Shown here: positions 17,067-33,687 of the stretch, in pieces
Layout: the number at the start of each line of letters is the position of its first letter
Numbering within the stretch: the first letter of the stretch is position 1
Assembly: GCA_963554175.1 (NCBI GenBank)
Contig: CAUVQU010000002.1
Coordinates: 10,714 to 74,713 of the forward strand
DNA: 64,000 bases
DNA from: an uncultured Candidatus Saccharibacteria bacterium
Lineage (GTDB): Bacteria; Patescibacteriota; Saccharimonadia; Saccharimonadales; Saccharimonadaceae
Reading direction: 5' to 3'
Translations under genes and position numbers: made by a program
Notes under the pieces: generated by a model
Told to the model about the DNA's origin: nothing
Databases searched by the model: none
The model's input: the letters and a program-made list of their open reading frames with translations, nothing else

Positions 17067-17099
17067 AAAATGTTTGGTTGTGGTATAGGACGGCTATTT

Positions 17100-21091: not shown

Positions 21092-21191
21092 ATCTATGTA
21101 ATTATTGCTTCTAGCAGATTAAGTATTTTAAGGTAGTATTCTATGTTTTTTGCGACTAGTTATGTCGACTAGTTTAATCGATATGACCAGT

Positions 21192-21247: not shown

Positions 21248-21255
21248 AGGTAAAA

Positions 21256-21887
21256 ATGGTAGAGTTGAAAATGAAGACTCTTGTTGGGATGACTATAGAA
21301 AAATGGGCGCAGAGTCCTGTTACTTCTGAGATGGTCAGACCATACCCGGTCGAGAAGGAAGAGGTTATTTTGGTCTTTCTTGATGGCAGTAATCTTACCG
21401 TCAAGGAGGCGGAAGACGGTTCTGGGCAAGTTGTCTGGGAGTGGTCTGACGCTAAAAGACCTTTTTCCTGCCGTCCGAAGGACGGGCCGATGAAAGTAAA
21501 GATCTCGGAGGATGTGGATTCTGGCCGCCTAGAGATCTTAGCGAGCGGCACAGGTGAGACTGTACTACTCGTTTCAAGAGAAGAGGTGGATTTCTGCGAG
21601 GAGATGTTTGAAAAAACGCCTCGCATCATGGAAAAACGCCCGGTCTGGATCTTTGCTGGAGGCTCTGGAAATCTACCCTCGGTAGATTTTTGGAGCTCCA
21701 GGGGAAGATTATCTACGAGACTGACTCTGACCAGAGGTTGCCAAATATCATTATGGCAGACGTTATCGTTGCTGGAAACAGAAACAGGAGTCTCAGTATT
21801 GATGATATTTGTGCGAGACTTCCGGACGGAGTTGAGCCAATCTTCGTTGAATTTTCTTTGGCAGAAGAATATCTGACAAAGAAATAA
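21256..21887 (+). CDS. Hypothetical protein with an apparent frame break at a T5 run
   Basis: The frame starting at 21256 looks protein-like up to about 21690. The -1 frame (open 21612-21887) then reads LELQGKIIYETDSDQRLPNIIMADVIVAGNRNRSLSIDDICARLPDGVEPIFVEFSLAEEYLTKK and is followed by a terminator. The T5 run at 21687-21691 lies at the junction. Confidence 0.5.
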
Positions 21888-22009
21888 GACGAGAGTGCTT
21901 CTCGCATGGGGTGGCCCGCCCCGCAAAAATGCCCATAGAATGCCTGAAAGGCCCTCATGGAGGGTCTTTTTTATATTTTCCTGTTCGCTATGTGATAACT
22001 ATTAATTAC

Positions 22010-22038
22010 TTGACATTATTGGATTGCTATGTTTTAAT
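22010..22038 (+). promoter_or_regulatory. Promoter of the 22123-22921 two-gene unit
   Basis: TTGACA 22010-22015, 17-nt spacer ending in TGT, TTTAAT 22033-22038. Confidence 0.45.
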
Positions 22039-22122
22039 ATTAGAGTTCGTCCAATTGTGGAAAACGAGGTAGGCCCAGGCCGTGTATGCGCTGGGTAGTT
22101 CTTTAAGAAAGGAGGTACTTGT

Positions 22123-22524
22123 ATGAGTACCATGAGAAAAAGTAACCAGACTATCTTAGATAGTCAGACCGTTCGTTTTAATATCAGCGGAGGTCCTAGC
22201 AGGGACAGGATCTTCGATGCGTGTAAGTATTTGCACGACAAGATCAAGATTGACCTGGATTTTAAAGTCATCCTGGGGTATTCAGCCCCGAAGGATGATC
22301 CGTGCTGTGCGGCATTTGAAGTACCGATCAAGGACTTTAGGGTACATAAGATTATGCATGAGGACGGATCAGGAGAGAGTTTTATGCTCTCCGGACGTTG
22401 TAAAGCGGATCTTGATCCGTGTATGCCTATTATAAAAAAATATAAGGAGTACGGCTTCTCGGCTTGGTATAATAGCAAGCGCAGAACGGGCTGGATCTCT
22501 TTGACTGAAAAGGAGGGGATGTAA
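22123..22524 (+). CDS. Hypothetical protein (133 aa)
   Basis: AAGGAGG RBS. Followed 1 nt later by the next ATG. Confidence 0.6.
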   Translation: MSTMRKSNQTILDSQTVRFNISGGPSRDRIFDACKYLHDKIKIDLDFKVILGYSAPKDDPCCAAFEVPIKDFRVHKIMHEDGSGESFMLSGRCKADLDPCMPIIKKYKEYGFSAWYNSKRRTGWISLTEKEGM

Positions 22525-22525
22525 A

Positions 22526-22921
22526 ATGGAACAGTTTATGCAATGCTTGAAGAAGATCAGCTTCTTAGCTTATGACTATGAGGCAGATGACGAATCTTTC
22601 GAGATTGCAGACTCTGCGAAGGTGGAGTTTGTGAATGGATTGGTGCTTTTTCTTTCTAAAGTCAAAAGCATCTGTCCAAGTGGCCACGGTACATGCACTT
22701 ACGGGTCATGGATTTGGAAGGATAAGCCGCTGAACGGTAATCCGATAGTAGCTGAATTCCCTTCTTTGCCTGTAAAGGTAGAAGAGGATGGGCGTTATCT
22801 TTCTATCAAGGACTTAAATAATCGCGAGATTATTGCGGTCTCTAAGGATGGAGCGGATTACTACTATCCGGACGGCTATATTGAGGTTAATTTTGATTAC
22901 TTAAATAAGTATCAAAAATAA
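22526..22921 (+). CDS. Hypothetical protein (131 aa)
   Basis: Coupled to the upstream ORF. Terminator follows immediately. Confidence 0.6.
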   Translation: MEQFMQCLKKISFLAYDYEADDESFEIADSAKVEFVNGLVLFLSKVKSICPSGHGTCTYGSWIWKDKPLNGNPIVAEFPSLPVKVEEDGRYLSIKDLNNREIIAVSKDGADYYYPDGYIEVNFDYLNKYQK

Positions 22922-22931
22922 TCTCAATCTA

Positions 22932-22957
22932 CCCCCCAACTTTGGGGGGATTTTTTA
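22932..22957 (+). terminator. Intrinsic terminator
   Basis: cccccc aacttt gggggg a tttttt. Confidence 0.75.
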
Positions 22958-22963
22958 TTATTC

Positions 22964-22994
22964 AAAAAGGAAAACCCCGACCAAATGGTCGGGG
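22964..22994 (-). terminator. Intrinsic terminator of the 23032-23781 gene
   Basis: Stem ccccgacc (22975-22982) / ggtcgggg (22987-22994). The T-run on the minus strand corresponds to the plus-strand A-run at 22964-22974. Confidence 0.7.
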
Positions 22995-23031
22995 AAAATA
23001 GATTCTACCTTCTGAAACGGGAGCTCCAATC

Positions 23032-23781
23032 CTATCTGGAGACTTCTGGGATGTTATCCCAAAGATATCTTAGATAGGAATCGGTAATTTTTTCTGGACC
23101 ACTAAGTGGTACCAGAAAATCTTGCTTTCTATAGCCAGCTTTCTCCAGGATATCCATAATGGCCGGATCCTTTGAGAGATAGGTGTGTCCGTCGCGGTAG
23201 ACGAAGACTACCCTACCTGCATTGTAACTATAGCTGCCAAGGCTACTAATGGCTACAATATCCACACAGGTCTCATTGAGACGTGGATAGTATATTGAAT
23301 ATACCCCACAGTCCTCAACTGGGATACCGCCGTGTGGGACCCTGAGACAGGATTCTAGTAGACGATCATCTATGGAGCCGATATGGTGTTCGTCACACCA
23401 AACCTCAGAATCTTTCTCGAACTGCTTTCGAGCTAAGCGGTTCGCCTCATCACAGAGTTCCTGCCATTCATTTGTTTTGTGATATGGTAGGTCGCCGTTT
23501 GAAAATGGGACGTAGAACGATTCGTTCCTGAACCCAGCCTGGTCGAGTAGCTGTACCAGGCTCCTGGTGTACGGTGCGGCGTAGATCTCGCCGTCCATCA
23601 CCCAGCAAACAGTACCGTTGTTTACTGAGTACTCACCCTCGCGATGTTCTGCCAGATGGGTGAGATTAAGTTGATACGGTAACCCCTCCCTTTCAGCCTT
23701 AATTAGGGGATATTTTGTTACCAAGAATCCAATTTCTTTAAGGCTTTCTCTTGCTGTTTTCTGGTTTGTTTCTCTTGTCAT
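23032..23781 (-). CDS. Hypothetical protein with an internal domain duplication
   Basis: Start at ATG 23781 (MTRETNQ), which follows GGAGG. Two related segments: GEIYAAPYTRSLVQLLDQAGFRNESFYVPFSNG and GHTYLSKDPAIMDILEKAGYRKQDFLVPLSGP. Confidence 0.65.
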   Translation of the reverse strand: MTRETNQKTARESLKEIGFLVTKYPLIKAEREGLPYQLNLTHLAEHREGEYSVNNGTVCWVMDGEIYAAPYTRSLVQLLDQAGFRNESFYVPFSNGDLPYHKTNEWQELCDEANRLARKQFEKDSEVWCDEHHIGSIDDRLLESCLRVPHGGIPVEDCGVYSIYYPRLNETCVDIVAISSLGSYSYNAGRVVFVYRDGHTYLSKDPAIMDILEKAGYRKQDFLVPLSGPEKITDSYLRYLWDNIPEVSR

Positions 23782-24056
23782 GTTGACCTCCTTGCGGCTG
23801 TTGCCGCTTCTAAAAATATTTCCGCGGCCTATTCCGCGGTTTAGCCTGCCCACCAATCTTTAATAGACAGATTAAACCGCAGAAAAATGCAAGGGGGTGG
23901 TAGAATCTTTTAAGATACTGCTCTTTGCTAGAGCTTATATATTATAACATTCTAATGCTAAGTTGTCAATTTAGAAGATTATTTGATATATGTTCAAAAT
24001 TATATTATAATGACCCTGTTTCCAAAAAACGCACATTTACGAAAGGGGGTTCTGTT

Positions 24057-24404
24057 ATGGCAGAAAACAAAGGACTCAATGATTTTACAATCGACTGGAA
24101 TAAGGCGCATAGAAGCTTTTTCTTTACCATTCAATGGGCGCCAGTGGTTGGAAGGCCAGTGAATATCGATATGAGGTATACTGCGGTATGCTACGGGGAT
24201 CTATACACCACTGATGATTGGAATCATTTCAAAGCAATGGTTGATCTGAAGTCACATAATTTGATGATGGTGGTTTCTAGTGAGGAAGCTTTCAGTCAAG
24301 GTGTAGTACAGATTGTAGTGTCTTCGGCGAATCATGATTATAGCGAAAGTTATATCGTGAGCACTCTGGAATGGATCAGTAGAGATTTCTTTGGAGTAAA
24401 GTAA
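24057..24404 (+). CDS. Hypothetical protein (115 aa)
   Basis: ATG 24057 (MAENKGLND) follows AAGGGGG. Confidence 0.55.
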   Translation: MAENKGLNDFTIDWNKAHRSFFFTIQWAPVVGRPVNIDMRYTAVCYGDLYTTDDWNHFKAMVDLKSHNLMMVVSSEEAFSQGVVQIVVSSANHDYSESYIVSTLEWISRDFFGVK

Positions 24405-24411
24405 AATTAAA

Positions 24412-24437
24412 AACCCCGGTTTCCCGGGGTTATTTTC
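24412..24437. terminator. Bidirectional intrinsic terminator
   Basis: aaccccgg tttc ccggggtt with flanking A-run and T-run. Confidence 0.7.
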
Positions 24438-25482
24438 ATGGATGAGGATAGATCCTAAAGGTCGGATAGCCAAACCTTTGCATCTTGCTTTCTACTTCTC
24501 TGATCGAATTGAGACCAAGATTTTTGATCCTGAGCCAATCCATGTACGGATAATTAATAATATCCGAGATGGTATAAATTTCAGCTCTCCTCAGGGCTCG
24601 ATATGTGTGTGTCGTTAGGTCTAGGCACTCTATCTCGGTCTGATCTTCCACCTCGCCACTTAAGAACTCCTTTGCTTTTTCCGCGCATTCGTACGGAGTA
24701 AAGGTGATCTTTCTGAGCTCTTGTCTTAGAGCAAATTCCTCCTGGAAGAGAGGATTTTGCCTTAAGGATTTTAGTCTGTCGATGATATCATCAACAGTCT
24801 TTGTCTGAGCTTCAGAAGGCTTGAGAATAGAAGGCAACGCTCTGGCACTGCGGATCTTACGAATAGCAAGGTCCTCAGTCTGTCTGATCCTGTTGGATGA
24901 GACGCCTTGATCGATTGCGATCTCACAAGCTGCCATTACCTTACCTTCGAGTCCATACCACTTTGAGATGACCTGAAACTCTTTCTCGGTCAAGCAGCCT
25001 TTGATCCCTGCTTGGATCTTTTGGCATTGGCTAGTGGTCGGATTCTGATATGTCTCGTAGCTCAGATTTCCGAACGTATAGTCAATGGAAAAAGTTTGAT
25101 CATCCTTGAAGATCTTGCAGAGATCCTCGAACTCTACTACTACTGGTTCCTCTCTCATGAGATCGTGATGAACGGTCATGTATAAGAGGTTAATAGTAAA
25201 GGAGTTGGCCACAAAGTCGTGACGTAAATATCCTTTCTTATCTAGTGCGGCGGCAAGCTCCAGTAAATACTTTGGAGTTTTGCGGATGTAGTTTTCGTCG
25301 CGGTCGATTAGATAGGCGGTGCGCCTGCCCTGCCAGATAATCTCAGGAAGTGTCTGGTAATACTTTTCGAGATGTCCTTCTGCAGATTTTGATAAATATA
25401 GTTCATCTAGGCACTGCAAGTCGGCGGCTTTTCTGGCTGGTAAACTATAATATCCCCTGTTGGTATAAAGATTATTTGTCAT
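24436..25482 (-). CDS. Putative transcription factor: sigma-70 region 4-like HTH fused to an RNAP alpha-subunit CTD-like domain
   Basis: LTEKEFQVISKWYGLEGKVMAACEIAIDQGVSSNRIRQTEDLAIRKIR resembles sigma region 4.2. IECLDLTTHTYRALRRAEIYTISDIINYPYMDWLRIKNLGLNSIREVESKMQRFGY aligns by eye with E. coli alpha-CTD ([23 protein letters not shown]...LLKTPNLGKKSLTEIKDVL). Confidence 0.6.
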   Translation of the reverse strand: MTNNLYTNRGYYSLPARKAADLQCLDELYLSKSAEGHLEKYYQTLPEIIWQGRRTAYLIDRDENYIRKTPKYLLELAAALDKKGYLRHDFVANSFTINLLYMTVHHDLMREEPVVVEFEDLCKIFKDDQTFSIDYTFGNLSYETYQNPTTSQCQKIQAGIKGCLTEKEFQVISKWYGLEGKVMAACEIAIDQGVSSNRIRQTEDLAIRKIRSARALPSILKPSEAQTKTVDDIIDRLKSLRQNPLFQEEFALRQELRKITFTPYECAEKAKEFLSGEVEDQTEIECLDLTTHTYRALRRAEIYTISDIINYPYMDWLRIKNLGLNSIREVESKMQRFGYPTFRIYPHP

Positions 25483-25616
25483 TTTTTCTTCCCCCTTTTG
25501 GAAAAATTCTTAAAACAGAGATTATTAATAGAGGGACGCTCTAGAAAAATCCTCTTTTTAAGGTTCTCGCCATATATGACGTTTTTTGTATTTACAGACA
25601 AAGTCTGCATACTATA

Positions 25617-25645
25617 TATTATGCCATAAAGTATATGATTGTCAA
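25617..25645 (-). promoter_or_regulatory. Promoter of the sigma4/alpha-CTD gene
   Basis: Minus strand: TTGACA (25645-25640), 17-nt spacer, ATAATA (25622-25617). Confidence 0.4.
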
Positions 25646-25783
25646 TGTTGGAGTGGGGTAGTTTTTGGGCAAGATCTCAGTTTTGGAGTAAGATTAGGTT
25701 TGGTTAAGATTTTGACTTATGGTAAGGTTTAAAACTCTGAGTATGATATATTAATAAGAGAAAAAGCAGAGAGGTATGACGGG

Positions 25784-28282
25784 ATGAGTCGAGGTATGGA
25801 ATTTGGCGGTGCTAATGTCGAGCAGGATAAAGAAGAAACGACAGATTGGCAGCAGGCGATGCAGGGGGTGAAGTTTCAGGGAGCAAAGACATTTAAATCT
25901 AGTGATAATGAGTTTTTAATTCCACCGACCCCAGAGGCAGAAACAAGTGAGGTTTTAAAGCATCCTGGAATACTCGGTACTTTTAAGAATTTTTTAGCAG
26001 AGAAATTTGGATCTAAAAAGGCGGGGACTGGGCTTTTTGGTCTGCTTGGAAAACAGGGGGCGAATTTATCTAGTCTATATGGAGCGAGTGTTGGCCAAGA
26101 AAAAATCAAGATTCCGGGAGTTGATGATGGTAATGGAGCGAACGAGGCTGCATCTGATGTAGCCGAGTCGATAAATGAGATTTTTCAGAACGATTACACA
26201 CACGAAGTGGTGGGTCAGACGGTGGATGAAGAACTAAGGCCTCCGATATGGGACGTAAAGAGGGTTAGTGAAAAACTTGGCTCAAATGAGGGCGGCTGGT
26301 TCGAGAAGCAGAATGGTGAAAAATATTATGTAAAATTTTATGAAAATCCAAATCAGGGGCGGGCGGAATTTATCGCCAATGCGATCTATGAAAAGGCTGG
26401 TATTAAGGCGGCGCATACTGAGAGAGTAATGATAGATGGACGGGAAGCAATTGCTTCGACGGCAGTTGAGGATGCGCGGCCAGTAGCGGCAGTAGATCAA
26501 GCGGCGAGTTTTGATGTGCAGAATGGGTTTGTGGCGGATGCGTTCTTGGCAAACTGGGATGTTGTAGGGGCGACATATGATAATATCGTGCAAAATCAAG
26601 ATGGTTTTTATCGGATCGATAATGGAGGCTCACTAATTTTTCGGGCGCAGGGTGGAGACAAAGAATTTAGTGCGAAGGAGATTCCTGAGCTCGAATCAAT
26701 GCGTGTACGGGGGCGGCAAACTGGGGAGGTTTTTAGTGGCATAACTGAAGAGGAGATTCAAAGACAGGCGCAAGAATTTGTACAGAAAGTACAGCCAGAA
26801 GATATTCTTTCGATTGTTAACCAATCAGGAATATCTGGGAAGGCGCGTGAGCGAGTGCTGCAGGGGCTTTTGGGACGAAGAGAGTATTTGGTTAATAAAT
26901 ATACCGATGAAAATGACAAAAGAGAAACTGCGAAGCTGCGTCGACGAGTATCAGTAAGTGAGGCATTGCAGGGATTAAAAAATCAGGAGTTGGAGAAGTC
27001 TTATGAGGGGGTGCTACGGATGAGGACTGAGGTGATTTGCGATCGTGATCATATTGAAGGGCAACGGATTGATATTATTGATAAGTCGGATGTGGGGTTA
27101 ACAGAGGTAAGATTGAAGGTACGAGATCATAGTAGCTTGATTGCTGCATTGAAGCGAAAATATCTTGAGCTCGAAGATCGTAAACAAGAGTTGAATTTAG
27201 CAGAGAGTGAAACGAAGGGAGCGGATGAGAAGATATATGTGGACAAATTTGTTTATGAAGGAGTAAACAATAAGAGGCCGCAAGAACTTTGTCAGGCTTT
27301 TGTGCTGCAAAAAGGTGATATTAAGGTTTATATCGCTGACCCCACAAAGCGCGCAAGAGGACGGCTGACGACGATCTATACGAATAATAACCAGAGCGGT
27401 TTAGTGCGAAGCGCACTGGGTTTGGTAAAAATTGAAATGCCGGCTGGAATGGATCCGATAGAAATTGAGCAGACAGTTGATGAGATTTTAGAAAAAGATC
27501 TTGGGATAAATAATGCACTTTCCGAGGTAACTGAGGAAGCGGCGCAAGAATATAAGGAATCACGTTTGAAGTGGCAGTATAAGATCGAGGGAGAGTTGTC
27601 TGTCGAGGAGAAAGAACGTGCAGAGAGACTTGAGCGAAAAGAGGTCTTCCCTGGCTATTCAACCTTAGTGGAGGAAGGCAAGCATCTTGAATATTTAGAG
27701 AAATATGGTGATGATCTGAGAGCGATACATAATATGGGTATAGCGTCGGCCGAAGATGTGAAGATGGTCTTCACGCAAGGGTTGATGTGCACCACGGAGC
27801 GTTTTTCTCGAGGTTTGATGCGAGGCGGACTTTCTTCGGTGAGAGATATGGACTCTGGGGGAGCGGATAATGTGTTTACGCGGATTATGGGAAAGGAAAA
27901 ACGAGCGGAGCTGGGAGGGGTTGTATTGATTTTGAAGCCTGAGATTTTCGATCGCACGGATTGGTATAGTTATTCCTCTGATACTTATGGGTCGACTGAT
28001 CGAAGTGAGTTCAAAAAACGTATGTCGCCTGATGAAGTATTTGATTTTGTGGCAAATAGTGGAGATTATATAAGAAATAATGAGCAGATGTTTCGGATGG
28101 GGATTGGGGCAGAATATATTGAGGGGGTGGAGGTGGATGCTCAATTTAGGGAGGAGATGATTGAGAAGTTACATGCAAGGGGGCTGCACGAGTTGAATGG
28201 AAAGAAGATTGAAGAGGTGATTGTGGCGCGGGAACCAGTGGCACTGAGAAGTGCAGTAGCGGAGACTTTGAGTCATGAATAG
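25784..28282 (+). CDS. Large protein with protein-kinase-like motifs and a conserved C-terminal domain (module copy A)
   Basis: 832 aa. Motifs: LGSNEGGWF (Gly-rich), YYVKFY (Lys), AEFIANAIY (Glu), DAFLANWDVVG..YDNIV, YRIDNGGSLIFRAQGG. C-terminal block: QGLMCTTERFSRGLMRGGLSS..DMDSGGADNVFTRI...NNEQMFRMGIGA. Colinear paralog at 43822..46665. Confidence 0.8.
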   Translation: MSRGMEFGGANVEQDKEETTDWQQAMQGVKFQGAKTFKSSDNEFLIPPTPEAETSEVLKHPGILGTFKNFLAEKFGSKKAGTGLFGLLGKQGANLSSLYGASVGQEKIKIPGVDDGNGANEAASDVAESINEIFQNDYTHEVVGQTVDEELRPPIWDVKRVSEKLGSNEGGWFEKQNGEKYYVKFYENPNQGRAEFIANAIYEKAGIKAAHTERVMIDGREAIASTAVEDARPVAAVDQAASFDVQNGFVADAFLANWDVVGATYDNIVQNQDGFYRIDNGGSLIFRAQGGDKEFSAKEIPELESMRVRGRQTGEVFSGITEEEIQRQAQEFVQKVQPEDILSIVNQSGISGKARERVLQGLLGRREYLVNKYTDENDKRETAKLRRRVSVSEALQGLKNQELEKSYEGVLRMRTEVICDRDHIEGQRIDIIDKSDVGLTEVRLKVRDHSSLIAALKRKYLELEDRKQELNLAESETKGADEKIYVDKFVYEGVNNKRPQELCQAFVLQKGDIKVYIADPTKRARGRLTTIYTNNNQSGLVRSALGLVKIEMPAGMDPIEIEQTVDEILEKDLGINNALSEVTEEAAQEYKESRLKWQYKIEGELSVEEKERAERLERKEVFPGYSTLVEEGKHLEYLEKYGDDLRAIHNMGIASAEDVKMVFTQGLMCTTERFSRGLMRGGLSSVRDMDSGGADNVFTRIMGKEKRAELGGVVLILKPEIFDRTDWYSYSSDTYGSTDRSEFKKRMSPDEVFDFVANSGDYIRNNEQMFRMGIGAEYIEGVEVDAQFREEMIEKLHARGLHELNGKKIEEVIVAREPVALRSAVAETLSHE

Positions 28283-28712
28283 AGATTTTGAGGAGCAGGT
28301 ATATTATGTCGAATCGGACCAGGATGAGTCGGTACTCGTGGCGGTGGGGTTAAAGATTCAGAGGAGTTCTCGTGATGGTGAGAATGTGGCTGGGGGTGTT
28401 GGCGGAGGTATTGGCAGTCACGAGAATGGATACAAACATGAGAATGGGAATCTGGGGGATGGCGGGGTATATTTTTTGGAGTGGTTTGACACTGTCTATT
28501 GGCGACGAATGACTGCGAGTGAGGTGTGGATGAAGAATGGTGAACTGTTTTTTAAAAGGATTGAGCCTGAAGGGGGTGGAATGTATCATTTTACGCCAAT
28601 GACTGTTGCGACCTATAATCAATTTGTGCGTGATGAATTGTTTGAGGCAAAAGATTTTATAGATGACGAAGAGGTGCGGCTGGCCTTTTTAAGGATGATA
28701 AAGAGAGTATAA
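28275..28712 (+). CDS. Small partner protein of module A (immunity/antidote-like?)
   Basis: 145 aa. ATG overlaps the upstream stop (ATGAATAG). VYYVESDQDESVLVAVG...RRMTASEVWMKNGELFFKRIEPEGGGMYHFTPM is homologous to 46697..47137. Confidence 0.75.
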   Translation: MNRDFEEQVYYVESDQDESVLVAVGLKIQRSSRDGENVAGGVGGGIGSHENGYKHENGNLGDGGVYFLEWFDTVYWRRMTASEVWMKNGELFFKRIEPEGGGMYHFTPMTVATYNQFVRDELFEAKDFIDDEEVRLAFLRMIKRV

Positions 28713-28736
28713 AGAAGGTGTTATAATAATAGTAAT

Positions 28737-29051
28737 ATGGACGAAAATGAGAAAATGATCAGATTGGCAACTGAGGTAAAGGACGAGAATAATAATAGTC
28801 TTGAGGCGGTAGATAAGGAGAGCGATGAAACCCTCGAGGAGACATTTTCTGGTAAGGATGAGAGATGTGCTAGGGGTGCGGACGGCAGGGAGACTGGTCA
28901 TTGTGAAGAGGATGTGAGCTTAAAGAATGAAACTACGACCCCTCAGACGAACTGGTTCTTAAATGGTGTGGTTGCGGTAGTGGCTATTGCGGCGGCAATA
29001 TTGCTGAGATATCTAAAATTTAAGATGAGAGATAAGATTAATAAGGCGTAA
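28737..29051 (+). CDS. Acidic tail-anchored membrane protein
   Basis: 104 aa. C-terminal TM WFLNGVVAVVAIAAAILLRYL. TGTTATAAT at 28719-28727 lies just upstream. Confidence 0.5.
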   Translation: MDENEKMIRLATEVKDENNNSLEAVDKESDETLEETFSGKDERCARGADGRETGHCEEDVSLKNETTTPQTNWFLNGVVAVVAIAAAILLRYLKFKMRDKINKA

Positions 29052-29192
29052 GTGGTATTTTATAAAAACGTCGAAGTAATTTGACGTTTTTTTGATGAAT
29101 ATATGTTCTGAGTTTTTGAAAAATAAACAATGTTTTTTAGATAGTTACTTAAGGTTTATGCTTGCTTTTACTAGGAAATATTATAAAAAGTA

Positions 29193-29221
29193 TTGACAAA
29201 AAAGAATGTATATGTTATTAT
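29193..29221 (+). promoter_or_regulatory. Promoter of the 29463 gene
   Basis: TTGACA 29193-29198, 17-nt spacer ending in TGT, TATTAT 29216-29221. About 235-nt leader. Confidence 0.55.
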
Positions 29222-29462
29222 ATGACCATAAGCTTGAGAACGGCAAAAGAACCGGACAAAAGCTTAAGAACGTTAAGACCAATATGAAGATGTAAATCCT
29301 TAATCACAAGGTGGGATGAGTGAATATAATACAGTAGTAAAACTATTGAGCATATTATATTCAGCCACCCTACCTTGCGAAAAAAGAGCTTGGTGTCAGG
29401 GCGGTATCCGACCGATTCGGAAAATTTCCAGAGCGGCAGAGACCGCTAGAAAGGAGCCTATC

Positions 29463-29798
29463 ATGGCTACAATTAAGAATTTGACACCTCATACAATCAA
29501 CATCTGCGCTGAGGACGGAACTATTGTGAAGTCCTACGAGAGCGAGGGCATTGCCCGCGCTAAGCAGACTGCAGAGCATATAGGCGAGATCGACGGAGTG
29601 GAGCTTGTCTCCATGAAGTTTGGTGAACCAGAGGATCTGCCAGAGTTTGAGGAAGGAGTTTACTACGTGGTTAGTATAATCACTGCAAACGCTGCTAAGG
29701 CAGTTGGGCGCAGGGTTGACGATTTACTAATTACAAGTGATCCTGTCCGTGACGCTGATGGTCGTATAGCTGGCTGCAAGAGGTTTGCCCTCGTCTAA
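29463..29798 (+). CDS. Hypothetical protein (111 aa), GC-rich
   Basis: ATG 29463 (MATIKNLTPHTINI) follows AAAGGAG. The longer track ORF from 29316 has no RBS and runs through leader hairpins. Confidence 0.65.
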   Translation: MATIKNLTPHTINICAEDGTIVKSYESEGIARAKQTAEHIGEIDGVELVSMKFGEPEDLPEFEEGVYYVVSIITANAAKAVGRRVDDLLITSDPVRDADGRIAGCKRFALV

Positions 29799-29942
29799 GC
29801 AGCTCAGCAACTGAGCATCTCCTACGGAAAGCGTAATAATAGAAATTTTAAGGTTCGCCCTTAATTCTAGCGGACAATCCGCAATAAACGCTGACCAAAA
29901 AAGAGCTCTGCTCCCCCCCTACAACTAAATATTGGTATTTTT

Positions 29943-29972
29943 GCCTGGACGAATGTCCAGGCTTTTCTTTTT
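29943..29972 (+). terminator. Intrinsic terminator
   Basis: gcctggac gaat gtccaggc ttttcttttt. Confidence 0.8.
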
Positions 29973-30032
29973 ATTAAAAGTGGTTTCTGTGTTATATTTG
30001 AAACAGGTAATACTTAATAAGGATAAATTAAG

Positions 30033-31529
30033 ATGGATAAAACTTTTCCAGGAGCGGATTTTGTACGATCGTCTCAAGATGAGAAGCCTATTCAGGAATA
30101 TAATGAAAAGATAGATGTGGATAAGGCTCCTCTCTCAGCTAATCCAGCTTATAATCTTGGAAAAATCACTATAGAGTCAATGAATTTTGAGGATTTGACT
30201 CCTGAGTCATCGATGGATGAGGCGGAAAAGGAATCTTCGGAAGAGCTGGTAAATGAAAAAATACCAGTCATGGATACGGCTGAGAGGTTAGCTGCAAGAC
30301 AGGAAAAGTTGAAAAAAGGTATAAAAATCGTAATTGGCGGACCTCCACATTCGGGAAAGTCGGTGTTCATTGAGGCTCTAACCCAAAATCTTGATAAAGA
30401 TAATACTTTTTCGTTTAGTGCAGCACCAGATGGCGAGGGGCCTTGGTTGCAGCGACATTATGATGATCCTGATGTGGTAAAATTGCGACAAAAAGGAAAA
30501 TTCACTCCAGAATATGTGGCTGATCGCAAAAAGAAGATCAATGATTGGGAAGGACCACTGATGATTATTGATGTGGGTGGTCGAACAAGTGAGGAGAATG
30601 CACAGATGATTGAGGGGGCGACACATGCAATTATCCTTGCTGGTGATCTTTCTAAGGTTGCGGAATGGCGTGATTTCTTTGAAGAAAACAATATTGAAGT
30701 TATTGCAAAACTGCATAGTCATTATCAGGGTAAAAAAGATATTCAGCGACCAGTGGAAAGCGGAGAAAACCATATAGTTAGCTCTGTACATTATCTCGAA
30801 AGGGGGGAGCCGGCTGCTGATCGTGAGACCATTAATCAGGTAGCGGGTTTGATTACTGGCATGGTTGAGGGGAATGTGGCTTATAAGCAGGCTCACGAGG
30901 GCGAAAATGCTAATCCATTTGAATTATCGATTTCAGATGTGTTTAAGGACTTACCAAGTGAAACTATCGAGAGAACCATAAATACCCTCGATGGGCAGCA
31001 GAAGATAATACAGAATAGGCAAATATTGCGTTCGGCGATTCCTCAAATTTATGAGAAAGCGCTTAGTTATGATGCGCAGCCGGCGTGGTTGAGCGGACCA
31101 GTTAATTCTTGGGAGGCCATTGCGTTAGCTATGGCATTTGAGGAGGCCGGTAGCACGGATGTTCGTTTGCGAAGTCCGGACGGATTTGTCTCGGTAAAGA
31201 GTTTACCTGAAGCTGAGGAGTTGGATACGAAATGGTGGATGGAACCAAGGCAGCAGGGTGAGATGGATGGTAAGCCAATTTATGTAGTGCATAATACTGC
31301 ACACGTGTCTAATAATCCAATTTCTCCAGCCGATCTCGAATCAATGACAGTACCGAAACTGCCAGAGGATGCAATTGTAGTTATTTCTACGCAAGGTCCA
31401 AACTGGTTGAAAGCATCTATTGCTGCAGGTTACCGAGGTAAAGTGGCTGGGATTGCTGCTTTTCAACCTGGTGAAGGTTCAACTATAGCTTGGGCTGCAG
31501 ATAAGAATAATCTTGGAAAAATTATATAA
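30033..31529 (+). CDS. P-loop NTPase with a C-terminal domain possibly related to Csx3
   Basis: Walker A VIGGPPHSGKSVF and Walker B-like LMIIDVGG. The C-terminal AWLSGPVNSWEAIALAMAFEEAGSTDVRLRSPDGFVSV resembles, from memory, the Csx3 core ISGRGPIWLHCFLAHKY..VAVYDPRLGAVVV. Confidence 0.6.
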   Translation: MDKTFPGADFVRSSQDEKPIQEYNEKIDVDKAPLSANPAYNLGKITIESMNFEDLTPESSMDEAEKESSEELVNEKIPVMDTAERLAARQEKLKKGIKIVIGGPPHSGKSVFIEALTQNLDKDNTFSFSAAPDGEGPWLQRHYDDPDVVKLRQKGKFTPEYVADRKKKINDWEGPLMIIDVGGRTSEENAQMIEGATHAIILAGDLSKVAEWRDFFEENNIEVIAKLHSHYQGKKDIQRPVESGENHIVSSVHYLERGEPAADRETINQVAGLITGMVEGNVAYKQAHEGENANPFELSISDVFKDLPSETIERTINTLDGQQKIIQNRQILRSAIPQIYEKALSYDAQPAWLSGPVNSWEAIALAMAFEEAGSTDVRLRSPDGFVSVKSLPEAEELDTKWWMEPRQQGEMDGKPIYVVHNTAHVSNNPISPADLESMTVPKLPEDAIVVISTQGPNWLKASIAAGYRGKVAGIAAFQPGEGSTIAWAADKNNLGKII

Positions 31530-31559
31530 CTAAGAATTAAAATATTTATTATGTTTTGG

Positions 31560-31595
31560 ATACTGCGGTCATTAACTTGTCGCAGTATTTTTATT
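31560..31595 (+). terminator. Intrinsic terminator
   Basis: atactgcg (31560-31567) / cgcagtat (31581-31588) plus ttttatt. Confidence 0.65.
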
Positions 31596-31716
31596 GAGTT
31601 CTTTTCATATTTATTGGAAGAACTGCACTCTTAATGCTTAGCTTGAACTTTATATGATTATATTGTATAATATTTATGTATTTATAAACAAATTGGACAT
31701 TAAAAAGGAGGGGTAT

Positions 31717-32655
31717 ATGATAAATATTCATAAGTTTTATAGTGAGAAAGTAAATTCGATCACACATGTGGCACCGCATCATGCCGATGAGGTATTTGCA
31801 ACGGCTATGTTGTCTATATTATTCCCTGTCGAGCTTCTGAGGACGCGCGACCAGGAGATTATAGAAAATACAAAAGCCATTGTTTATGATGTCGGTGGCG
31901 AATTTGATCCTTTCAGAAAACGTTTCGATCATCACCAGAAGAGTTTCTCTGAAATACGTGATGATGGAATTAGCTACTCATCGGCAGGGCTAATTTGGCG
32001 TGAGTATGGTGCATCGATTGTAAAATCGATGGCTAAAACTAGGCCAATCGATGATGTGATGACTGCAGAGGTAGTTTCCTTAGTCGACGAAGCGCTGATT
32101 CGAGGTATCGATGCGAGAGATAATGGACAAGGAGAGAAGGAGGATTCAATGTCTGTATCCTCGGTGATTTCCGCCTGCAATTCCCTTTGGGATGAGAATG
32201 AAGATGCTGACATGTGTTTTTTAAGAGCATGTGATTTAGCGATCGCAATTCTTGTGCGTGAAATTAAAGTGGCGATTTCGACTATTCGTGGCCGCAAGTT
32301 GGTAGCAGATAAGATTAAGACTGTCGATGGACCTATTTTGGTAATAGATCAGTTTATCGGCGGTTGGCTTGAAGAAGTTCTTAATACCGACAGTCCGAAA
32401 GCTGCAAGTTTGTTGTTCGCAGTTTTTCCTGCTACAAACGGAGACTGGAATATACAGGCAATCCCTCCATCAAAAGAAGATATGATGGGGCAAAGAAAAC
32501 CATTTCCAGATGCCTGGCGTGGGCTGAAAGATGAAGAGCTTATAGAGTCTTCTGGAGTAGGCACGGCTGTATTCTGCCATAAGGCTGGATTCTTTGCAGT
32601 TGCTAAAACCAAGGAGGATGCTATTAGGCTTGCTGAAAAGGCAGTCAATAGCTGA
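31717..32655 (+). CDS. MYG1 / UPF0160 family metal-dependent hydrolase, paralog 2
   Basis: APHHADEVFATAML, KRFDHHQ, RGIDARDNG. ATG 31717 follows AAGGAGGGG. Colinear with 17184..18146. Confidence 0.75.
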   Translation: MINIHKFYSEKVNSITHVAPHHADEVFATAMLSILFPVELLRTRDQEIIENTKAIVYDVGGEFDPFRKRFDHHQKSFSEIRDDGISYSSAGLIWREYGASIVKSMAKTRPIDDVMTAEVVSLVDEALIRGIDARDNGQGEKEDSMSVSSVISACNSLWDENEDADMCFLRACDLAIAILVREIKVAISTIRGRKLVADKIKTVDGPILVIDQFIGGWLEEVLNTDSPKAASLLFAVFPATNGDWNIQAIPPSKEDMMGQRKPFPDAWRGLKDEELIESSGVGTAVFCHKAGFFAVAKTKEDAIRLAEKAVNS

Positions 32656-32680
32656 TTCTTAGATCTTGTTAGCATCTTAA

Positions 32681-32708
32681 ACGGTCAGAATATTCTGGCC
32701 GTTTTTTA
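32681..32708. terminator. Bidirectional intrinsic terminator
   Basis: acggtcag aatatt ctggccgt tttttt. Confidence 0.65.
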
Positions 32709-32763
32709 ATGTAATGAATAAGTTTGACTAATAAATGATTCTAAACTTTTAATCAAAGCTCAG

Positions 32764-33687
32764 CTAGTTTTCTTGACGTTTTAGGCTTTGATTCAATATA
32801 TTGTAGTAGCATTCATCCGTATAGCCGTTTACTTTTATTTTACGAAATTTGTTAAGTGCAGTATTGAAATTACTAATAAAATCTTCACCTTCTTTTAAGT
32901 TAATGAGTTTATTTAATGCGTGGGCAGATGCGAGTCGAACCGCATCACAGGTCTGTATGGCACGATTAATAATCTCATCTTTGCCGCTAACTTCATTACG
33001 TAGTTTGTTGGCTAGGTTATGTGACTGTATGAATAAGCTAGATAGAATATTGAACTGCAGGTCAGGGTCGGGGGTATGGTAAACTGAACCTTCTTCATCC
33101 AGGTGAAAATTATCAAGATATTTTTGGTGACCAACGAAGAGGGGGCTTGCGCCTAGAATAAACCTAGGCACACCCTTCATGCATGCCACATAACTGTTAT
33201 CTTTGTAAAATTTAATAAAAGAACATCCTGACGGAATATCGCCTCTCGTATGGTCTCCACGAGCAAATTTCTTACTGACGGCGTCAGGCAAAGTGGCGGT
33301 ACATATATCTATGCCAAATACATGAGGAGCTTTGTTGATATCATCGCTAAGTTTACAGATGATATCGATACCATTAAGATGATCGTCGTATTCGGAGGCA
33401 AGACTTGCGCGGCAACCAGGCAATGTTTCTCCATGGTTGAGTGCGTAGGTAAATTCCCACTCGGCAAGTTTACCTGCTTCGTCACTGGAATCACGTTCAA
33501 ATCTAAGCTTATCGCTTAATTCTTCATTAGCCTTATCTATATATTCTTTGTTATAATAGCGCTTTCCAATAAAGTCGATTAACCGAGGCCTGTCGGCTTC
33601 TACCGCCTTTTCGATGGCTATTATTTTTTTCTCATTTTCAGTATAGTACTCATTACTATGCGGTGGATTATTTATCTTCTCCGTCAT
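32764..33687 (-). CDS. Hypothetical protein (307 aa)
   Basis: Start chosen at ATG 33687 (MTEKINNPP), 6 nt after a minus-strand TATAAT (33699-33694). A hairpin plus T-run lies between it and the upstream gene. Confidence 0.55.
   Translation of the reverse strand: MTEKINNPPHSNEYYTENEKKIIAIEKAVEADRPRLIDFIGKRYYNKEYIDKANEELSDKLRFERDSSDEAGKLAEWEFTYALNHGETLPGCRASLASEYDDHLNGIDIICKLSDDINKAPHVFGIDICTATLPDAVSKKFARGDHTRGDIPSGCSFIKFYKDNSYVACMKGVPRFILGASPLFVGHQKYLDNFHLDEEGSVYHTPDPDLQFNILSSLFIQSHNLANKLRNEVSGKDEIINRAIQTCDAVRLASAHALNKLINLKEGEDFISNFNTALNKFRKIKVNGYTDECYYNILNQSLKRQEN

What the first reader, a model, noticed from the sequence alone, without database searches (positions are those of the whole stretch)
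25784..28712. Duplicated two-gene module: kinase-like multidomain protein plus small cognate partner (candidate effector-immunity or toxin-antidote system)
Two copies occur in this window (25784..28712 and 43822..47137). Each encodes a colinear large protein followed by a roughly 145-aa partner.

Large protein:
- It carries an ordered set of protein-kinase-like motifs: Gly-rich LGSNEGGW, Lys in (Y/F)YVKFY, Glu in AEF(I/V)ANA, a catalytic-loop-like DAFLANWDVVG..YDNIV, and a DFG-like YRIDNGG.
- A conserved middle region follows (V/I)CD(R/H)DHIEGQ.
- The most conserved block is C-terminal: QGLMCTTER(F/Y)SRG...G(L/M)SS..DMD(S/T)GGAD(N/S)VFTRI ... DRTDWYSY ... NEQMFR.G.GA.
- The spacing of an invariant His (RA(I/V)H), the VFTRI strand and NEQMF is loosely reminiscent of H-Y/F-E ADP-ribosyltransferases. 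That is only a guess.

Partner and context:
- The partners share (V)YY(V/I)ES...(R)(R/I)MTASE...F(F/A)FKRI(E/D).EGGG.Y.FTPM.
- In copy A the partner's ATG overlaps the large gene's stop.
- There is no signal peptide or TM.

An enzyme-rich large protein tightly coupled to a small conserved partner, and its duplication with divergence, fit a conflict or effector system I cannot assign to any named family.
Basis: partly seen in the sequence, partly recalled or inferred. Interest (0 to 1): 0.85.

Follow-up and report, generated by a model that had tools for sequence, protein, structure and literature searches.

The report
Phage-type two-enzyme toxin with immunity partner
Two copies of an unannotated gene pair in an oral Saccharibacteria genome encode a large probable toxin (a HipA-like kinase plus a new, probably ADP-ribose-transferring enzyme module) and a small protein that probably neutralises it; uncultivated phages carry the same cassette fused to a capsid-packaging domain.

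Summary
The window (close to Ca. Nanosyncoccus nanoralicus) holds two diverged copies of a large gene followed directly by a ~145-aa gene. The large proteins are 56% identical and the partners 33%.

None of the four proteins matches Pfam, NCBIfam, PHROGs or PDB sequences; PADLOC gave one weak hit.

Large protein, from an AlphaFold model:
- Disordered N-terminus of about 150 aa.
- Kinase domain closest to H. pylori CtkA and the HipA/HipT toxins.
- An obligate middle plus C-terminal ("mid-ct") module belonging to about 2,300 clusters.

Conserved companions:
- The partner follows mid-ct in every locus with enough downstream sequence, in at least four other CPR lineages, and after one kinase-less mid-ct protein.
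- An ADP-ribosylglycohydrolase (ARH) gene flanks the pair in six loci and is the only strongly recurrent neighbour.

Phage link: 51 viral contigs carry ct at the C-terminus of ~1,100-aa proteins. The two examined have an upstream portal and a MuF region; six show a divergent kinase. Partner homologs follow in about nine contigs, ARH in one. This mirrors the characterised Bxa/Bsi/BAH system.

Best reading: a MuF-less chromosomal toxin-immunity cassette. ADP-ribosyltransferase chemistry is inferred, not shown. The delivery route is unknown.

The parts
25591..25620 (+). Promoter-like site upstream of copy A (TTTACA-18-TATATT)
   Evidence: Consensus scan gives 10 of 12 matches, about 160 nt upstream of the ATG. 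This is a weak pattern match only.
25784..28282 (+). Large protein, copy A (832 aa): disordered N-terminus, kinase, mid, ct
   Evidence: ORF. AlphaFold model with pLDDT about 85-95 from residue 150 to 820. 234 homologs, none with a Pfam domain.
25784..26233 (+). Copy A residues 1-150: acidic, predicted-disordered N-terminal region, a possible trafficking region of unknown type
   Evidence: pLDDT is below 50 over residues 1-65 and 78-150. The region varies in length (20-340 aa) and sequence across homologs and has no hydrophobic segment.
26234..26908 (+). Copy A residues ~151-375: HipA/CtkA-type kinase-like domain. Motifs are G166-S167 loop, K184, E195, W258-D259, D266-N267, D279-N280-G-G and R287-A-Q-G
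   Evidence: Foldseek: CtkA E 5e-7, HipA/HipT/LepB probability 1.0. 28-38% identical to domains inside phage 'ADP-ribosyltransferase' proteins. Residues invariant across CPR, phage and MuF versions.
26996..27592 (+). Copy A residues 405-603: 'mid' domain (alpha/beta, motif CD.DHIEGQ.ID), an obligate companion of ct
   Evidence: pLDDT about 85-95. mid-ct occurs without the kinase in 83 of 129 family representatives. No Pfam match.
27593..28249 (+). Copy A residues 604-822: 'ct' domain, the predicted catalytic toxin domain. Invariant residues are R673, S684, D688, GG692-693, D695, F698, R700, R724, D726, D733, G736, R746, N766 and E767
   Evidence: 2,310 cluster representatives at E<=1e-3. Invariant residues across 55 CPR and viral sequences. 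The only non-kinase PDB match listed for the whole model is DarTG 7omu (probability 1.0, E 0.014). Found at the C-terminus of large proteins on 51 viral contigs.
28275..28712 (+). Partner A (145 aa): predicted cognate immunity protein, with a Gly-rich insert absent from other members
   Evidence: ORF overlaps the large-gene stop by 8 nt. Family of 166 proteins with no Pfam domain. Present downstream of mid-ct in all loci with room.
43501..43524 (+). Terminator-like hairpin separating the upstream MoxR-vWA-LRV genes from copy B
   Evidence: 10-bp stem with 5 GC pairs and a T-rich tail. Suggests copy B is a separate transcription unit.
43822..46665 (+). Large protein, copy B (947 aa). Approximate domains: kinase residues 192-416 (44395-45069), mid 450-638 (45169-45735), ct 639-858 (45736-46395), acidic Trp-rich tail 859-947
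   Evidence: ORF. 56% identical to copy A with all motifs kept.
46402..46528 (+). 66-nt tandem duplication (1.9 copies, 96% match) encoding the repeated PDSNVNWDV.NQSPEES segment in the C-terminal tail of copy B
   Evidence: Tandem Repeats Finder, score 240.
46697..47137 (+). Partner B (146 aa): predicted cognate immunity protein
   Evidence: ORF. AlphaFold model pLDDT 81, seven beta strands plus two C-terminal helices. No significant PDB fold match.

Best explanation
Each copy is a toxin-immunity cassette of the polymorphic-toxin type.

The large protein carries two enzymatic modules behind a disordered N-terminal region:
- A HipA/CtkA-type Ser/Thr kinase-like domain with a complete catalytic residue set.
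- A previously undescribed two-domain module (mid-ct). Its C-terminal domain most likely uses NAD+ to ADP-ribosylate a target, with E767 as the catalytic glutamate.

The small protein encoded immediately downstream, often translationally coupled, binds and blocks the mid-ct module and so protects the producer. In some lineages an adjacent ADP-ribosylglycohydrolase adds a second, enzymatic layer of protection by removing the modification.

The same cassette (kinase, mid, ct, then the partner, and in one case ARH) is used by uncultivated phages. There it is fused behind a MuF capsid-targeting domain next to the portal gene, presumably for injection with the DNA. The CPR versions lack MuF and sit among ordinary chromosomal genes.

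Shown: the homologies, the architectures, the gene linkage and the fold of the kinase domain.
Inferred: toxicity, ADP-ribosylation chemistry, that the partner acts by binding, and where the toxin acts (own cell, host bacterium or competitor).
For: Kinase fold: CtkA E 5e-7; HipA, HipT and LepB at probability 1.0. Catalytic Lys, Glu and Asp residues are invariant across CPR, phage and MuF versions.

mid-ct is a unit and the kinase is optional: 83 mid-ct against 30 kin-mid-ct among 129 representatives.

Partner linkage:
- It is directly downstream in all loci with room, including other CPR lineages.
- It follows a kinase-less mid-ct protein (L035, E 2e-57).
- It is absent where only the kinase is present.
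- Its residual co-variation is stronger with ct and mid than with the kinase.

ARH: it flanks the pair in six distinct loci, in both orientations, with ARHs as little as 22% identical. It is the top recurrent family among 101 flanking ORFs.

Phage versions:
- ct lies at the extreme C-terminus of 1,030-1,155-aa ORFs on most of 51 viral contigs. Partner homologs lie downstream in about nine of them.
- The two examined (L055, L053) have a MuF or head-morphogenesis region and an upstream portal gene. Six show a divergent kinase.
- L053 has the order portal, toxin, partner (E 4e-19), ARH (E 1e-77).

Kinase with ART elsewhere: the same kinase domain precedes bona fide C-terminal ARTs in phage and prophage proteins. 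Examples are PF03496 in Dolphis gp117 and ECML-606-1, and DRAT with MuF in L026.

Precedents:
- Bxa (MuF-ART) is neutralised by a small binder, Bsi, and an ARH, BAH (PMC11699363).
- Imm-ARG accompanies ART toxins (PMC3482391).

The only non-kinase PDB match listed for the model is DarTG.
Against: - No sequence or profile link from ct to any ART family. Pfam, PADLOC and PDB profile searches were negative. The hhalign test was uninformative.
- The DarTG Foldseek hit is marginal (E 0.014). I cannot tell whether it aligns to the DarT half or the macrodomain half.
- The proposed His of an H-Y-E triad is not conserved.
- ct has unusually many invariant Asp and Arg residues for an ART, which could point to other nucleotide chemistry.
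- The partner has no recognisable immunity fold and is not hypervariable.
- There is no secretion signal, no MuF domain and no nearby secretion apparatus in the window. ARH is absent from the window itself.
- The kinase domain also occurs on its own, so its coupling to ARTs is not universal.
- Nothing has been tested experimentally.
Confidence: 0.6

Rival explanations
1. Same toxin-immunity architecture but different chemistry. ct is not an ADP-ribosyltransferase but another nucleotide-using enzyme, for example a nucleotidyltransferase or alarmone-synthetase-like enzyme, an NAD+ glycohydrolase or a phosphoesterase. The ARH neighbours would then act on a related ADP-ribose-containing small molecule.
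For: No ART profile match. There are many invariant acidic and basic residues (D688, D695, D726, D733, R673, R700, R724, R746). The D695-x4-R700 and E767-x3-R771 spacings loosely recall RelA/SpoT-type synthetase motifs; this is my own recollection, not tested. MuF toxins with (p)ppApp synthetase domains and dual immunity exist (Apk2, cited in PMC11699363).
Against: ARH-family hydrolases act on ADP-ribose linkages, and ARH is the only strongly recurrent neighbour. Known alarmone-toxin immunity hydrolases belong to a different family (PMC11699363). The only structural neighbour is an ADP-ribose-system protein.
Confidence: 0.17
2. A reversible regulatory modification system working inside the CPR cell, like DraT/DraG. 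The large enzyme modifies the bacterium's own proteins in response to a signal, ARH erases the mark, and the small partner is a regulatory subunit or the substrate rather than an antidote.
For: The pairs lie among housekeeping genes, with no mobile-element or secretion genes beside them. The family is very widespread in CPR. The partner evolves no faster than the enzyme domains. The kinase-containing protein in L026 carries a DRAT-family domain.
Against: The same cassette sits at the C-terminal end of MuF-containing proteins beside portal genes on viral contigs, which is a delivery context and not a regulatory one. A genome carries two diverged copies, each with its own diverged partner. The closest kinase folds are toxins. 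ARH is present in only about a third of loci.
Confidence: 0.12
3. An anti-phage abortive-infection or decoy system. The chromosomal pair is kept because the partner (and ARH) neutralises homologous toxins injected by phages, or because release of the toxin on infection kills the cell.
For: Phages carry homologous toxins. The window has defence genes nearby: AAA-Csx3 about 1.3 kb downstream of partner A, and a type III R-M/GmrSD island beginning about 4.4 kb downstream of partner B. DarTG and HipA-like kinases are known defence toxins (PMC9503650).
Against: PADLOC found only one weak hit. The flanking defence genes are shared only with close relatives. Most loci lie among housekeeping genes. 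A pure immunity role would not need an intact toxin with all catalytic residues conserved.
Confidence: 0.08
4. The partner is not an immunity protein but a chaperone, adaptor or co-effector needed for folding, activation or export of the large protein.
For: Its fold is weakly PH-like or Ran-binding-like, a common protein-binding scaffold. It shows moderate rather than extreme divergence.
Against: Its position immediately downstream of the toxin domain is the canonical immunity position (PMC5576092, PMC3482391). It tracks the toxin domain rather than the N-terminal trafficking region. It is retained in both the MuF-fused and MuF-less versions, which must use different delivery routes.
Confidence: 0.05

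Closest known systems
MuF polymorphic toxins of temperate phages, in particular Bxa-Bsi-BAH of Bacteroides stercoris (PMC5576092, PMC11699363)
   Same: A large protein with a C-terminal enzymatic toxin domain, a small non-enzymatic gene immediately downstream, and an optional adjacent ARH-family hydrolase. Direct homologs of the window's ct domain (with mid, a divergent kinase and the partner each detectable in a subset) occur inside large, in examined cases MuF-containing, phage proteins next to portal genes.
   Different: The window proteins have no MuF domain and are not in a prophage. The toxin module (mid-ct) and the partner are unrelated in sequence to Bxa and Bsi. An extra kinase domain is present. 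The host lineage is CPR.
Phage 'polyvalent' or head-packaged kinase plus ART proteins, such as Pseudomonas phage Dolphis gp117, Escherichia phage ECML-606-1 and Gordonia phage GodonK gp67 (framework in PMC5512222, PMC9503650)
   Same: The kinase-like domain is homologous (28-38% identity, E to 5e-31). In Dolphis and ECML-606-1 it lies about 240 residues upstream of a C-terminal ART, the same relative layout as kinase, mid, ct.
   Different: Their C-terminal domain is a PF03496 or DRAT ART, not mid-ct. No partner homolog is present. They are far larger proteins.
HipA/HipT toxin kinases and H. pylori CtkA
   Same: These are the best structural matches to residues ~150-375. Catalytic Lys/Glu/Asp-Asn/Asp pattern is present. 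They have toxin or effector biology.
   Different: No Pfam HipA_C match for the window proteins. No HipB or HipS-type antitoxin is present, and the partner tracks mid-ct rather than the kinase. The family-specific GGSL.FRAQGG.K motif is distinctive.
DarT-DarG toxin-antitoxin system
   Same: Toxin gene first and antidote second. It is ADP-ribose chemistry. It is the only non-kinase PDB fold match listed for the model (7omu).
   Different: No sequence or PADLOC match. The partner is not a macrodomain. The eraser here is ARH-type and optional.
Tre1-Tri1 and 'Imm-ARG' ART toxin systems (PMC3482391; Tre1 is mentioned in PMC11699363)
   Same: An ART-type toxin protected by an ADP-ribosylglycohydrolase-family immunity protein.
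   Different: Those toxins are delivered by T6SS or other known routes and have recognisable R-S-E ART domains. Here ARH is accessory and a separate small protein is the universal companion.

Membership tests
HipA/CtkA-type kinase superfamily | Kinase fold resembling HipA/HipT/CtkA | tested here: met
   Foldseek against PDB: CtkA 3akl E 5.4e-7; HipA 4pu5, HipT 8ezr and LepB 4jw1 at probability 1.0, on a model with pLDDT about 90.
HipA/CtkA-type kinase superfamily | ATP-binding Lys, helix-C Glu, catalytic-loop Asp/Asn and metal-binding Asp all conserved | tested here: met
   K184, E195, D259, D266-N267 and D279 are invariant across CPR, phage and MuF versions.
HipA/CtkA-type kinase superfamily | Match to the Pfam HipA_C model (PF07804) | tested here: not met
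   No hit for either window protein at E<=1. There is only a sub-threshold hit (E 9e-4, 19 bits against a cutoff of 30.5) in the relative L028.
HipA/CtkA-type kinase superfamily | Phosphotransfer activity | not testable with these tools
   Needs biochemistry.
ADP-ribosyltransferase superfamily (ct domain) | ART split beta-sheet fold | tested here: inconclusive
   The only non-kinase PDB match listed is DarTG 7omu (probability 1.0, E 0.014, 194 columns).
ADP-ribosyltransferase superfamily (ct domain) | Conserved catalytic triad (H-Y-E or R-S-E) on strands 1, 2-3 and 5 | tested here: inconclusive
   E767 is invariant (55 of 55) just before a predicted strand. H649 is variable in viral members, so H-Y-E is not met. 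R700 / [ST]737-T738 / E767 fits R-S-E spacing and the predicted strand positions, but position 737 is Ser or Thr in only 35 of 55 sequences.
ADP-ribosyltransferase superfamily (ct domain) | Profile match to any ART family | tested here: not met
   Pfam, PADLOC and a PDB profile search were negative. hhalign against PF03496 and DRAT regions was negative, but the positive control also failed.
ADP-ribosyltransferase superfamily (ct domain) | Genomic linkage to an ADP-ribose-removing enzyme | tested here: met
   PF03747 ARH sits beside the pair in six CPR loci and one phage contig.
MuF polymorphic toxins | N-terminal Phage_Mu_F domain | tested here: not met
   There is no Pfam hit in the window proteins, and the N-terminal 150 aa are predicted disordered. 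The domain is met in phage homologs L055 and L053 and in L026-L028.
MuF polymorphic toxins | Encoded in a (pro)phage head-morphogenesis module | tested here: not met
   The window flanks are chromosomal genes. It is met for viral contigs L053 and L055.
MuF polymorphic toxins | C-terminal toxin domain followed by a small immunity ORF | tested here: met
   The partner lies directly downstream in all loci. That it is an immunity protein is inferred.
DarTG toxin-antitoxin | Macrodomain antitoxin | tested here: not met
   The partner model is a beta-sandwich with two helices. The best PDB matches are PH/Ran-binding-like at E 0.07 or higher.
DarTG toxin-antitoxin | DarT (DUF4433) sequence match | tested here: not met
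   No Pfam or PADLOC hit.
HipBA / HipBST toxin-antitoxin | HipB HTH or HipS antitoxin encoded with the kinase | tested here: not met
   The partner has no HipS fold match, although HipS-HipT complexes are in the PDB. The partner is absent from kinase-only loci.

The most novel reading that the evidence does not exclude
The large protein is a delivered effector of CPR epibionts. Saccharibacteria, which live attached to Actinobacteria, would have taken the kinase plus ADP-ribosylating warhead that actinophage-like viruses inject from their capsids, dropped the MuF capsid-targeting domain, and now export it by an unknown route (the disordered N-terminus or the acidic Trp-rich tail acting as the signal) to reprogram or kill their host bacterium. 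The partner would be self-immunity. This would be a first candidate enzymatic host-manipulation effector for Patescibacteria and would show shared weaponry between phages and epibiotic bacteria attacking the same hosts.
Probability: 0.2. Interest if true: 0.85.

Novelty: new variant of a known kind. Interest (0 to 1): 0.6.

Why it matters
**Annotation gap.** The mid-ct module (about 2,300 clusters at 50% identity) and its partner are large families with no entry in Pfam, NCBIfam, PHROGs or PADLOC, and I found no paper describing them. Recognising them as a toxin-immunity cassette shared by CPR bacteria and uncultivated phages would fill that gap.

**CPR biology.** How epibiotic Patescibacteria exploit their hosts is a major open question. 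This gives a concrete, mutable candidate: two paralogous pairs per genome with defined catalytic residues. Saccharibacteria are now genetically tractable (my own knowledge; no paper was read for this).

**Phage biology.** The same HipA-like kinase domain recurs in front of three different C-terminal modules (PF03496, DRAT and mid-ct). That suggests a functional partnership between phosphorylation and ADP-ribosylation in injected proteins that has not been studied.

If the cassette turns out to be a plain intracellular toxin-antitoxin pair, the interest is more modest: a new toxin family.

Tried and rejected
**Sequence and profile searches that found nothing**
- The four window proteins against Pfam, PHROGs, NCBIfam, PADLOC and PDB sequences, plus PDB profile searches with the full-length and ct-only alignments. 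There was nothing significant; the one weak PADLOC hit was PDC-M03A at E 1e-3.
- Pfam on 70 proteins with other mid-ct architectures found nothing. PHROGs on 8 long ones found no head domains.
- tblastn of the window's mid-ct and of a phage mid-ct against 50,697 annotated phage genomes gave no match. The module is confined to uncultivated viral contigs and CPR.
- A pattern scan of viral contigs with the partner profile found nothing. The partner homologs there were found only by local hmmsearch on ORFs next to ct.

**Other negative or uninformative tests**
- No natural fusion of the large protein and the partner exists among 120 homologs, so no complex could be modelled.
- Foldseek on the partner gave no significant match, so it is not a macrodomain or a HipS-like fold.
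- hhalign of ct against the PF03496-type and DRAT-type regions was negative, but the positive control also failed, so it is uninformative.

**Ideas rejected**
- Functional linkage of copy B to the upstream MoxR-vWA-LRV genes. The adjacency is shared only with a close relative (L006), and a terminator-like hairpin intervenes.
- The sigma4+alphaCTD protein next to copy A as a conserved partner or decoy. It occurs only in close Nanosyncoccus relatives.
- Recent horizontal acquisition. GC of the modules (0.43-0.45) is within the window's range.
- The H-Y/F-E triad.

**Limited result**
- The kinase-only homolog search was word-limited (40 hits, mostly stand-alone domains). It is therefore not a census of kinase-ART coupling.

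**Literature**
- Searches for a prior description in Saccharibacteria or Patescibacteria found none.

Full report
**1. Observation**

- Large A: 25784..28282, 832 aa.
- Partner A: 28275..28712, 145 aa.
- Large B: 43822..46665, 947 aa.
- Partner B: 46697..47137, 146 aa.

The large proteins are 56% identical over 665 residues. The partners are 33% identical, E 1e-25. The ATG of partner A lies 8 nt inside the end of the large gene. Neither large protein has a hydrophobic segment. The quoted motifs are real and are kept in 86-117 of 120 homologs, most of them in 106-117.

**2. Organism and annotation status**

The best genomic match is a Candidatus Nanosyncoccus nanoralicus MAG, at 92% protein identity in L003. 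The window is therefore Saccharibacteria (CPR/Patescibacteria) chromosome. Around the two modules are capsule and polysaccharide genes, a Y-family polymerase, two MYG1 paralogs, AAA-Csx3, a MoxR-vWA cluster, and a type III R-M/GmrSD island. GC content is unremarkable.

None of the four proteins gives a significant match in Pfam, NCBIfam, PHROGs or PDB sequences. PADLOC gave one weak hit, E 1e-3. The large-protein family has 234 detected members and the partner family 166. The only names attached are 'hypothetical protein' from Saccharibacteria.

**3. Anatomy of the large protein**

An AlphaFold model built on a 30-sequence alignment is confident (pLDDT about 85-95) from residue 150 to 820. It predicts the first 150 residues to be disordered.

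*Kinase-like domain (residues ~150-375).* The best PDB matches are H. pylori CtkA (E 5e-7), then the HipA, HipT and LepB kinases at probability 1.0. The catalytic set K184, E195, D259, D266-N267 and D279 is invariant even in the most distant relatives.

*Middle and C-terminal domains (residues ~405-603 and ~604-822).* A ct-only profile finds 2,310 cluster representatives at E<=1e-3 among 1.84 billion proteins. Of 129 new representatives:
- 83 are mid-ct without a kinase.
- 30 are kin-mid-ct.
- None has ct preceded by anything recognisable in Pfam.

So mid-ct is the core unit and the kinase is an optional addition. In L036 and L023 the kinase is a separate upstream gene. The named members of the wider family are again CPR (Vogelbacteria).

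**4. The partner**

The AlphaFold model (pLDDT 81) shows seven strands followed by two helices. It has no significant PDB neighbour. The best matches are PH/Ran-binding-like at E 0.07, so it is not a macrodomain or a HipS-like fold.

Its linkage to the large gene is the strongest regularity in the data:
- Among the loci from the first two look-ups and the GTDB scan, every one with a full-length large gene and enough downstream sequence has the partner immediately after it. That is about 16 distinct loci plus the window's two copies, including Azambacteria, Colwellbacteria and Sungiibacteriota. L035 and L036, fetched later, add two more.
- It follows a truly kinase-less mid-ct protein, whose upstream gene is an alanyl-tRNA synthetase (L035, E 2e-57).
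- It is absent from loci that have only the kinase domain.
- Its residual co-variation is stronger with ct and mid (partial r about 0.36) than with the kinase (0.13-0.18). This is weak evidence but points the same way.

The partner therefore belongs to mid-ct.

**5. ADP-ribosylglycohydrolase neighbours**

A PF03747 ARH gene lies directly beside the partner in six distinct loci (L001, L008, L015, L016, L023, L036). It occurs in both orientations, and the ARHs are as little as 22% identical to each other.

In a Pfam census of 101 flanking ORFs from 20 distinct loci, ARH is the top family with 6 members. Sigma70_r4 has 3. Everything else is assorted housekeeping seen once or twice. The window itself has no ARH.

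**6. The phage connection**

*The kinase domain.* It is 28-38% identical (E to 5e-31) to a domain inside very large proteins of cultured phages. Several of these are annotated 'ADP-ribosyltransferase (toxin)'.
- In Pseudomonas phage Dolphis gp117 and Escherichia phage ECML-606-1, a PF03496 ART domain follows it about 240 residues downstream.
- In Gordonia phage GodonK the protein directly follows the portal gene.
- In non-CPR bacteria the domain sits between a Phage_Mu_F domain and a C-terminal ART: DRAT in L026, and a weak PF03496 hit in L028.
- These proteins were also the best Foldseek hits in the viral structure library, at E 4e-14 to 2e-7.

*The ct domain.* It occurs on 51 IMG/VR viral contigs at 28-39% identity across the whole domain.
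- On most of them it forms the extreme C-terminus of ORFs of 1,030-1,155 aa. A recognisable mid domain precedes it in about ten.
- Divergent partner homologs lie immediately downstream in about nine contigs. One 1,760-aa protein carries kin plus ct.
- In L055, residues ~120-330 match MuF-like minor capsid proteins. Residues ~350-625 match mycobacteriophage 'minor capsid and ADP-ribosyltransferase domain fusion' proteins.
- The latter region is a divergent copy of the kinase domain, at E 2e-8 with a profile that includes phage versions. Five other contigs show the same.
- The ORF upstream in L055 is a portal, 45-47% identical to Arthrobacter phage portals.
- Contig L053 (GC 0.40) has this order: portal; a 1,100-aa protein with a MuF/head-morphogenesis N-terminus and mid-ct at the end; the partner (E 4e-19); then ARH (E 1e-77).

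**7. Interpretation**

The arrangement in L053 matches the experimentally characterised Bxa system. Bxa is a MuF-ART toxin neutralised by an adjacent small binder (Bsi) and an adjacent ARH-family hydrolase (BAH) (PMC11699363).

It also matches general rules from the literature:
- About 89% of MuF toxins are followed by a small putative immunity ORF.
- Toxin-immunity cassettes move between toxin families with unrelated N-termini (PMC5576092).
- ARH ('Imm-ARG') is an enzymatic immunity protein that accompanies ART toxins (PMC3482391).

I therefore read each window module as a MuF-less, chromosomal toxin-immunity cassette. The large protein carries two enzymatic warheads (kinase and mid-ct). The partner is the cognate inhibitor of mid-ct. 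ARH is an optional second layer of protection.

**8. How sure is the ADP-ribosyltransferase chemistry?**

For:
- The ARH linkage.
- mid-ct occupies the position held by bona fide ARTs behind the same kinase domain.
- The only non-kinase PDB match listed for the model is the DarTG ADP-ribosylation toxin-antitoxin fusion (probability 1.0 but E 0.014).
- E767 is absolutely invariant and sits immediately before a predicted strand.

Against:
- There is no profile link to any ART family.
- My hhalign test lacked power.

An R-S-E-like reading fits typical ART spacing, and Imm-ARG is reported to accompany R-S-E-clade ARTs. The reading places R700 at the end of strand 696-702, [ST]737-T738 before helix 740-743, and E767 before strand 768-771. 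However, position 737 is only partly conserved, so the triad is unresolved. I put ART-type chemistry at about 0.55-0.6 and 'some ADP-ribose/NAD-linked reaction' somewhat higher.

**9. What is not known**

Where the toxin acts is open. The CPR proteins have no MuF domain, signal peptide or known trafficking domain. They have only a variable, acidic, disordered N-terminus (median 176 aa) and, in many members, an acidic Trp-containing tail. Three roles remain possible:
- An intracellular toxin-antitoxin or abortive-infection pair.
- Protection against phage-injected homologs.
- An exported effector against the host bacterium.

The last is the most interesting. Many of the viral carriers are GC-rich, and the one examined (L055) has an actinophage-like portal. 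Actinobacteria are the hosts of oral Saccharibacteria. There is no direct evidence for export.

**10. Novelty and score**

The logic is known: a polymorphic toxin with a binder immunity protein and an ARH. What is new is the following:
- The toxin module, its partner and this kinase subfamily are undescribed and unannotated.
- The CPR version lacks any known delivery domain.
- The recurrent pairing of this kinase with three different C-terminal modules has not been noted in the papers I read (PMC5512222, PMC9503650, PMC5576092, PMC3482391).

I rate it a new variant of a known kind, with interest 0.6.

Noticed in passing
window 24436..25482 (-): A 348-aa protein combines a Sigma-70 region-4-like segment (residues 163-211) with an RNA polymerase alpha C-terminal domain (residues 279-335), and is transcribed divergently from copy A. 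The alpha CTD is the classic target of phage T4's injected ART (PMC5512222), so a decoy or regulatory role is conceivable. Homologs occur only in close Nanosyncoccus relatives (L003, L005, and a shorter form in L018).
   Followed up: partly
window 30033..31529 (+), 17160..18146 (+), 31654..32655 (+), 49429..49845 (+): A cluster of genes of RNA-repair or conflict flavour: an AAA-Csx3 fusion (PADLOC Csx3, E 1e-45), two MYG1-family exonuclease paralogs, and a small protein with a weak 'Swiss Army Knife RNA repair' HAD hit (PF18143, E 5.5e-4, below the cutoff).
   Followed up: no
window 34205..43421 (+): A four-gene block: a 1,013-aa protein with no Pfam match, a MoxR-type AAA_5 ATPase (683 aa), a 1,068-aa acidic protein ending in a vWA domain, and a 184-aa protein with a sub-threshold LRV-repeat hit. 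MoxR-vWA clusters have been proposed as threat-sensing systems. This one is separated from copy B by a terminator-like hairpin, and the adjacency is shared only with a close relative (L006).
   Followed up: partly
window 51524..61531 (+): A defence island: a type III R-M methylase (51524..53359), a RhuM-family gene inserted between mod and res (53359..54384), a Res helicase-endonuclease (54368..57478), two overlapping FtsK/SpoIIIE-like ORFs (57518..58588 and 58536..59372) that look like one gene split by a frameshift, and GmrSD (59408..61531).
   Followed up: no
window 47673..49295 (+): A 540-aa protein with no Pfam match lies directly after partner B. It contains a long Ala/Glu/Lys-rich segment (AEAEAKAKAKAEEEARRAQAEAEAKAKKEAAEAEAKE). 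It is conserved at the same position in L007 (a close relative) but not in distant loci.
   Followed up: partly
window 28275..28712 (partner A, residues ~35-65): Partner A carries a Gly-rich insertion of about 27 residues (GENVAGGVGGGIGSHENGYKHENGNLGDGG) inside the beta-sandwich. It is absent from partner B and from most family members. Some close orthologs (117 aa, P0171 and P0176) lack it.
   Followed up: no
window 1..64000: GC skew is positive in every 2-kb bin (0.02-0.38) regardless of gene orientation, so the whole window appears to lie on one replichore with a strong strand bias.
   Followed up: no
L005 4001..6633; L007 153..2966; L016 7..4821; L023 3563..8198; L036 2833..7468: In several related genomes the large gene is split into two or more ORFs. 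In L023 and L036 the break falls exactly between the kinase and mid-ct (385-386 aa plus 1,155 aa), consistent with modular independence. Other breaks may be frameshifts or assembly errors. L016 seems to hold a second large-gene fragment after the partner.
   Followed up: partly
L053 (IMGVR_UViG_3300017963_003169, 48 kb): This viral contig has GC 0.40, like the window, and its ARH is very similar to the CPR ARHs (E 1e-77). It may be a phage or prophage of a Saccharibacterium or another CPR bacterium, which would be of interest in itself.
   Followed up: no
P0380-P0385 (376 aa), P0387 (288 aa, SEC-C motif): Stand-alone versions of the kinase-like domain exist, some on contigs up to 439 kb, and one is fused to a SEC-C motif. 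Their context was not examined.
   Followed up: no
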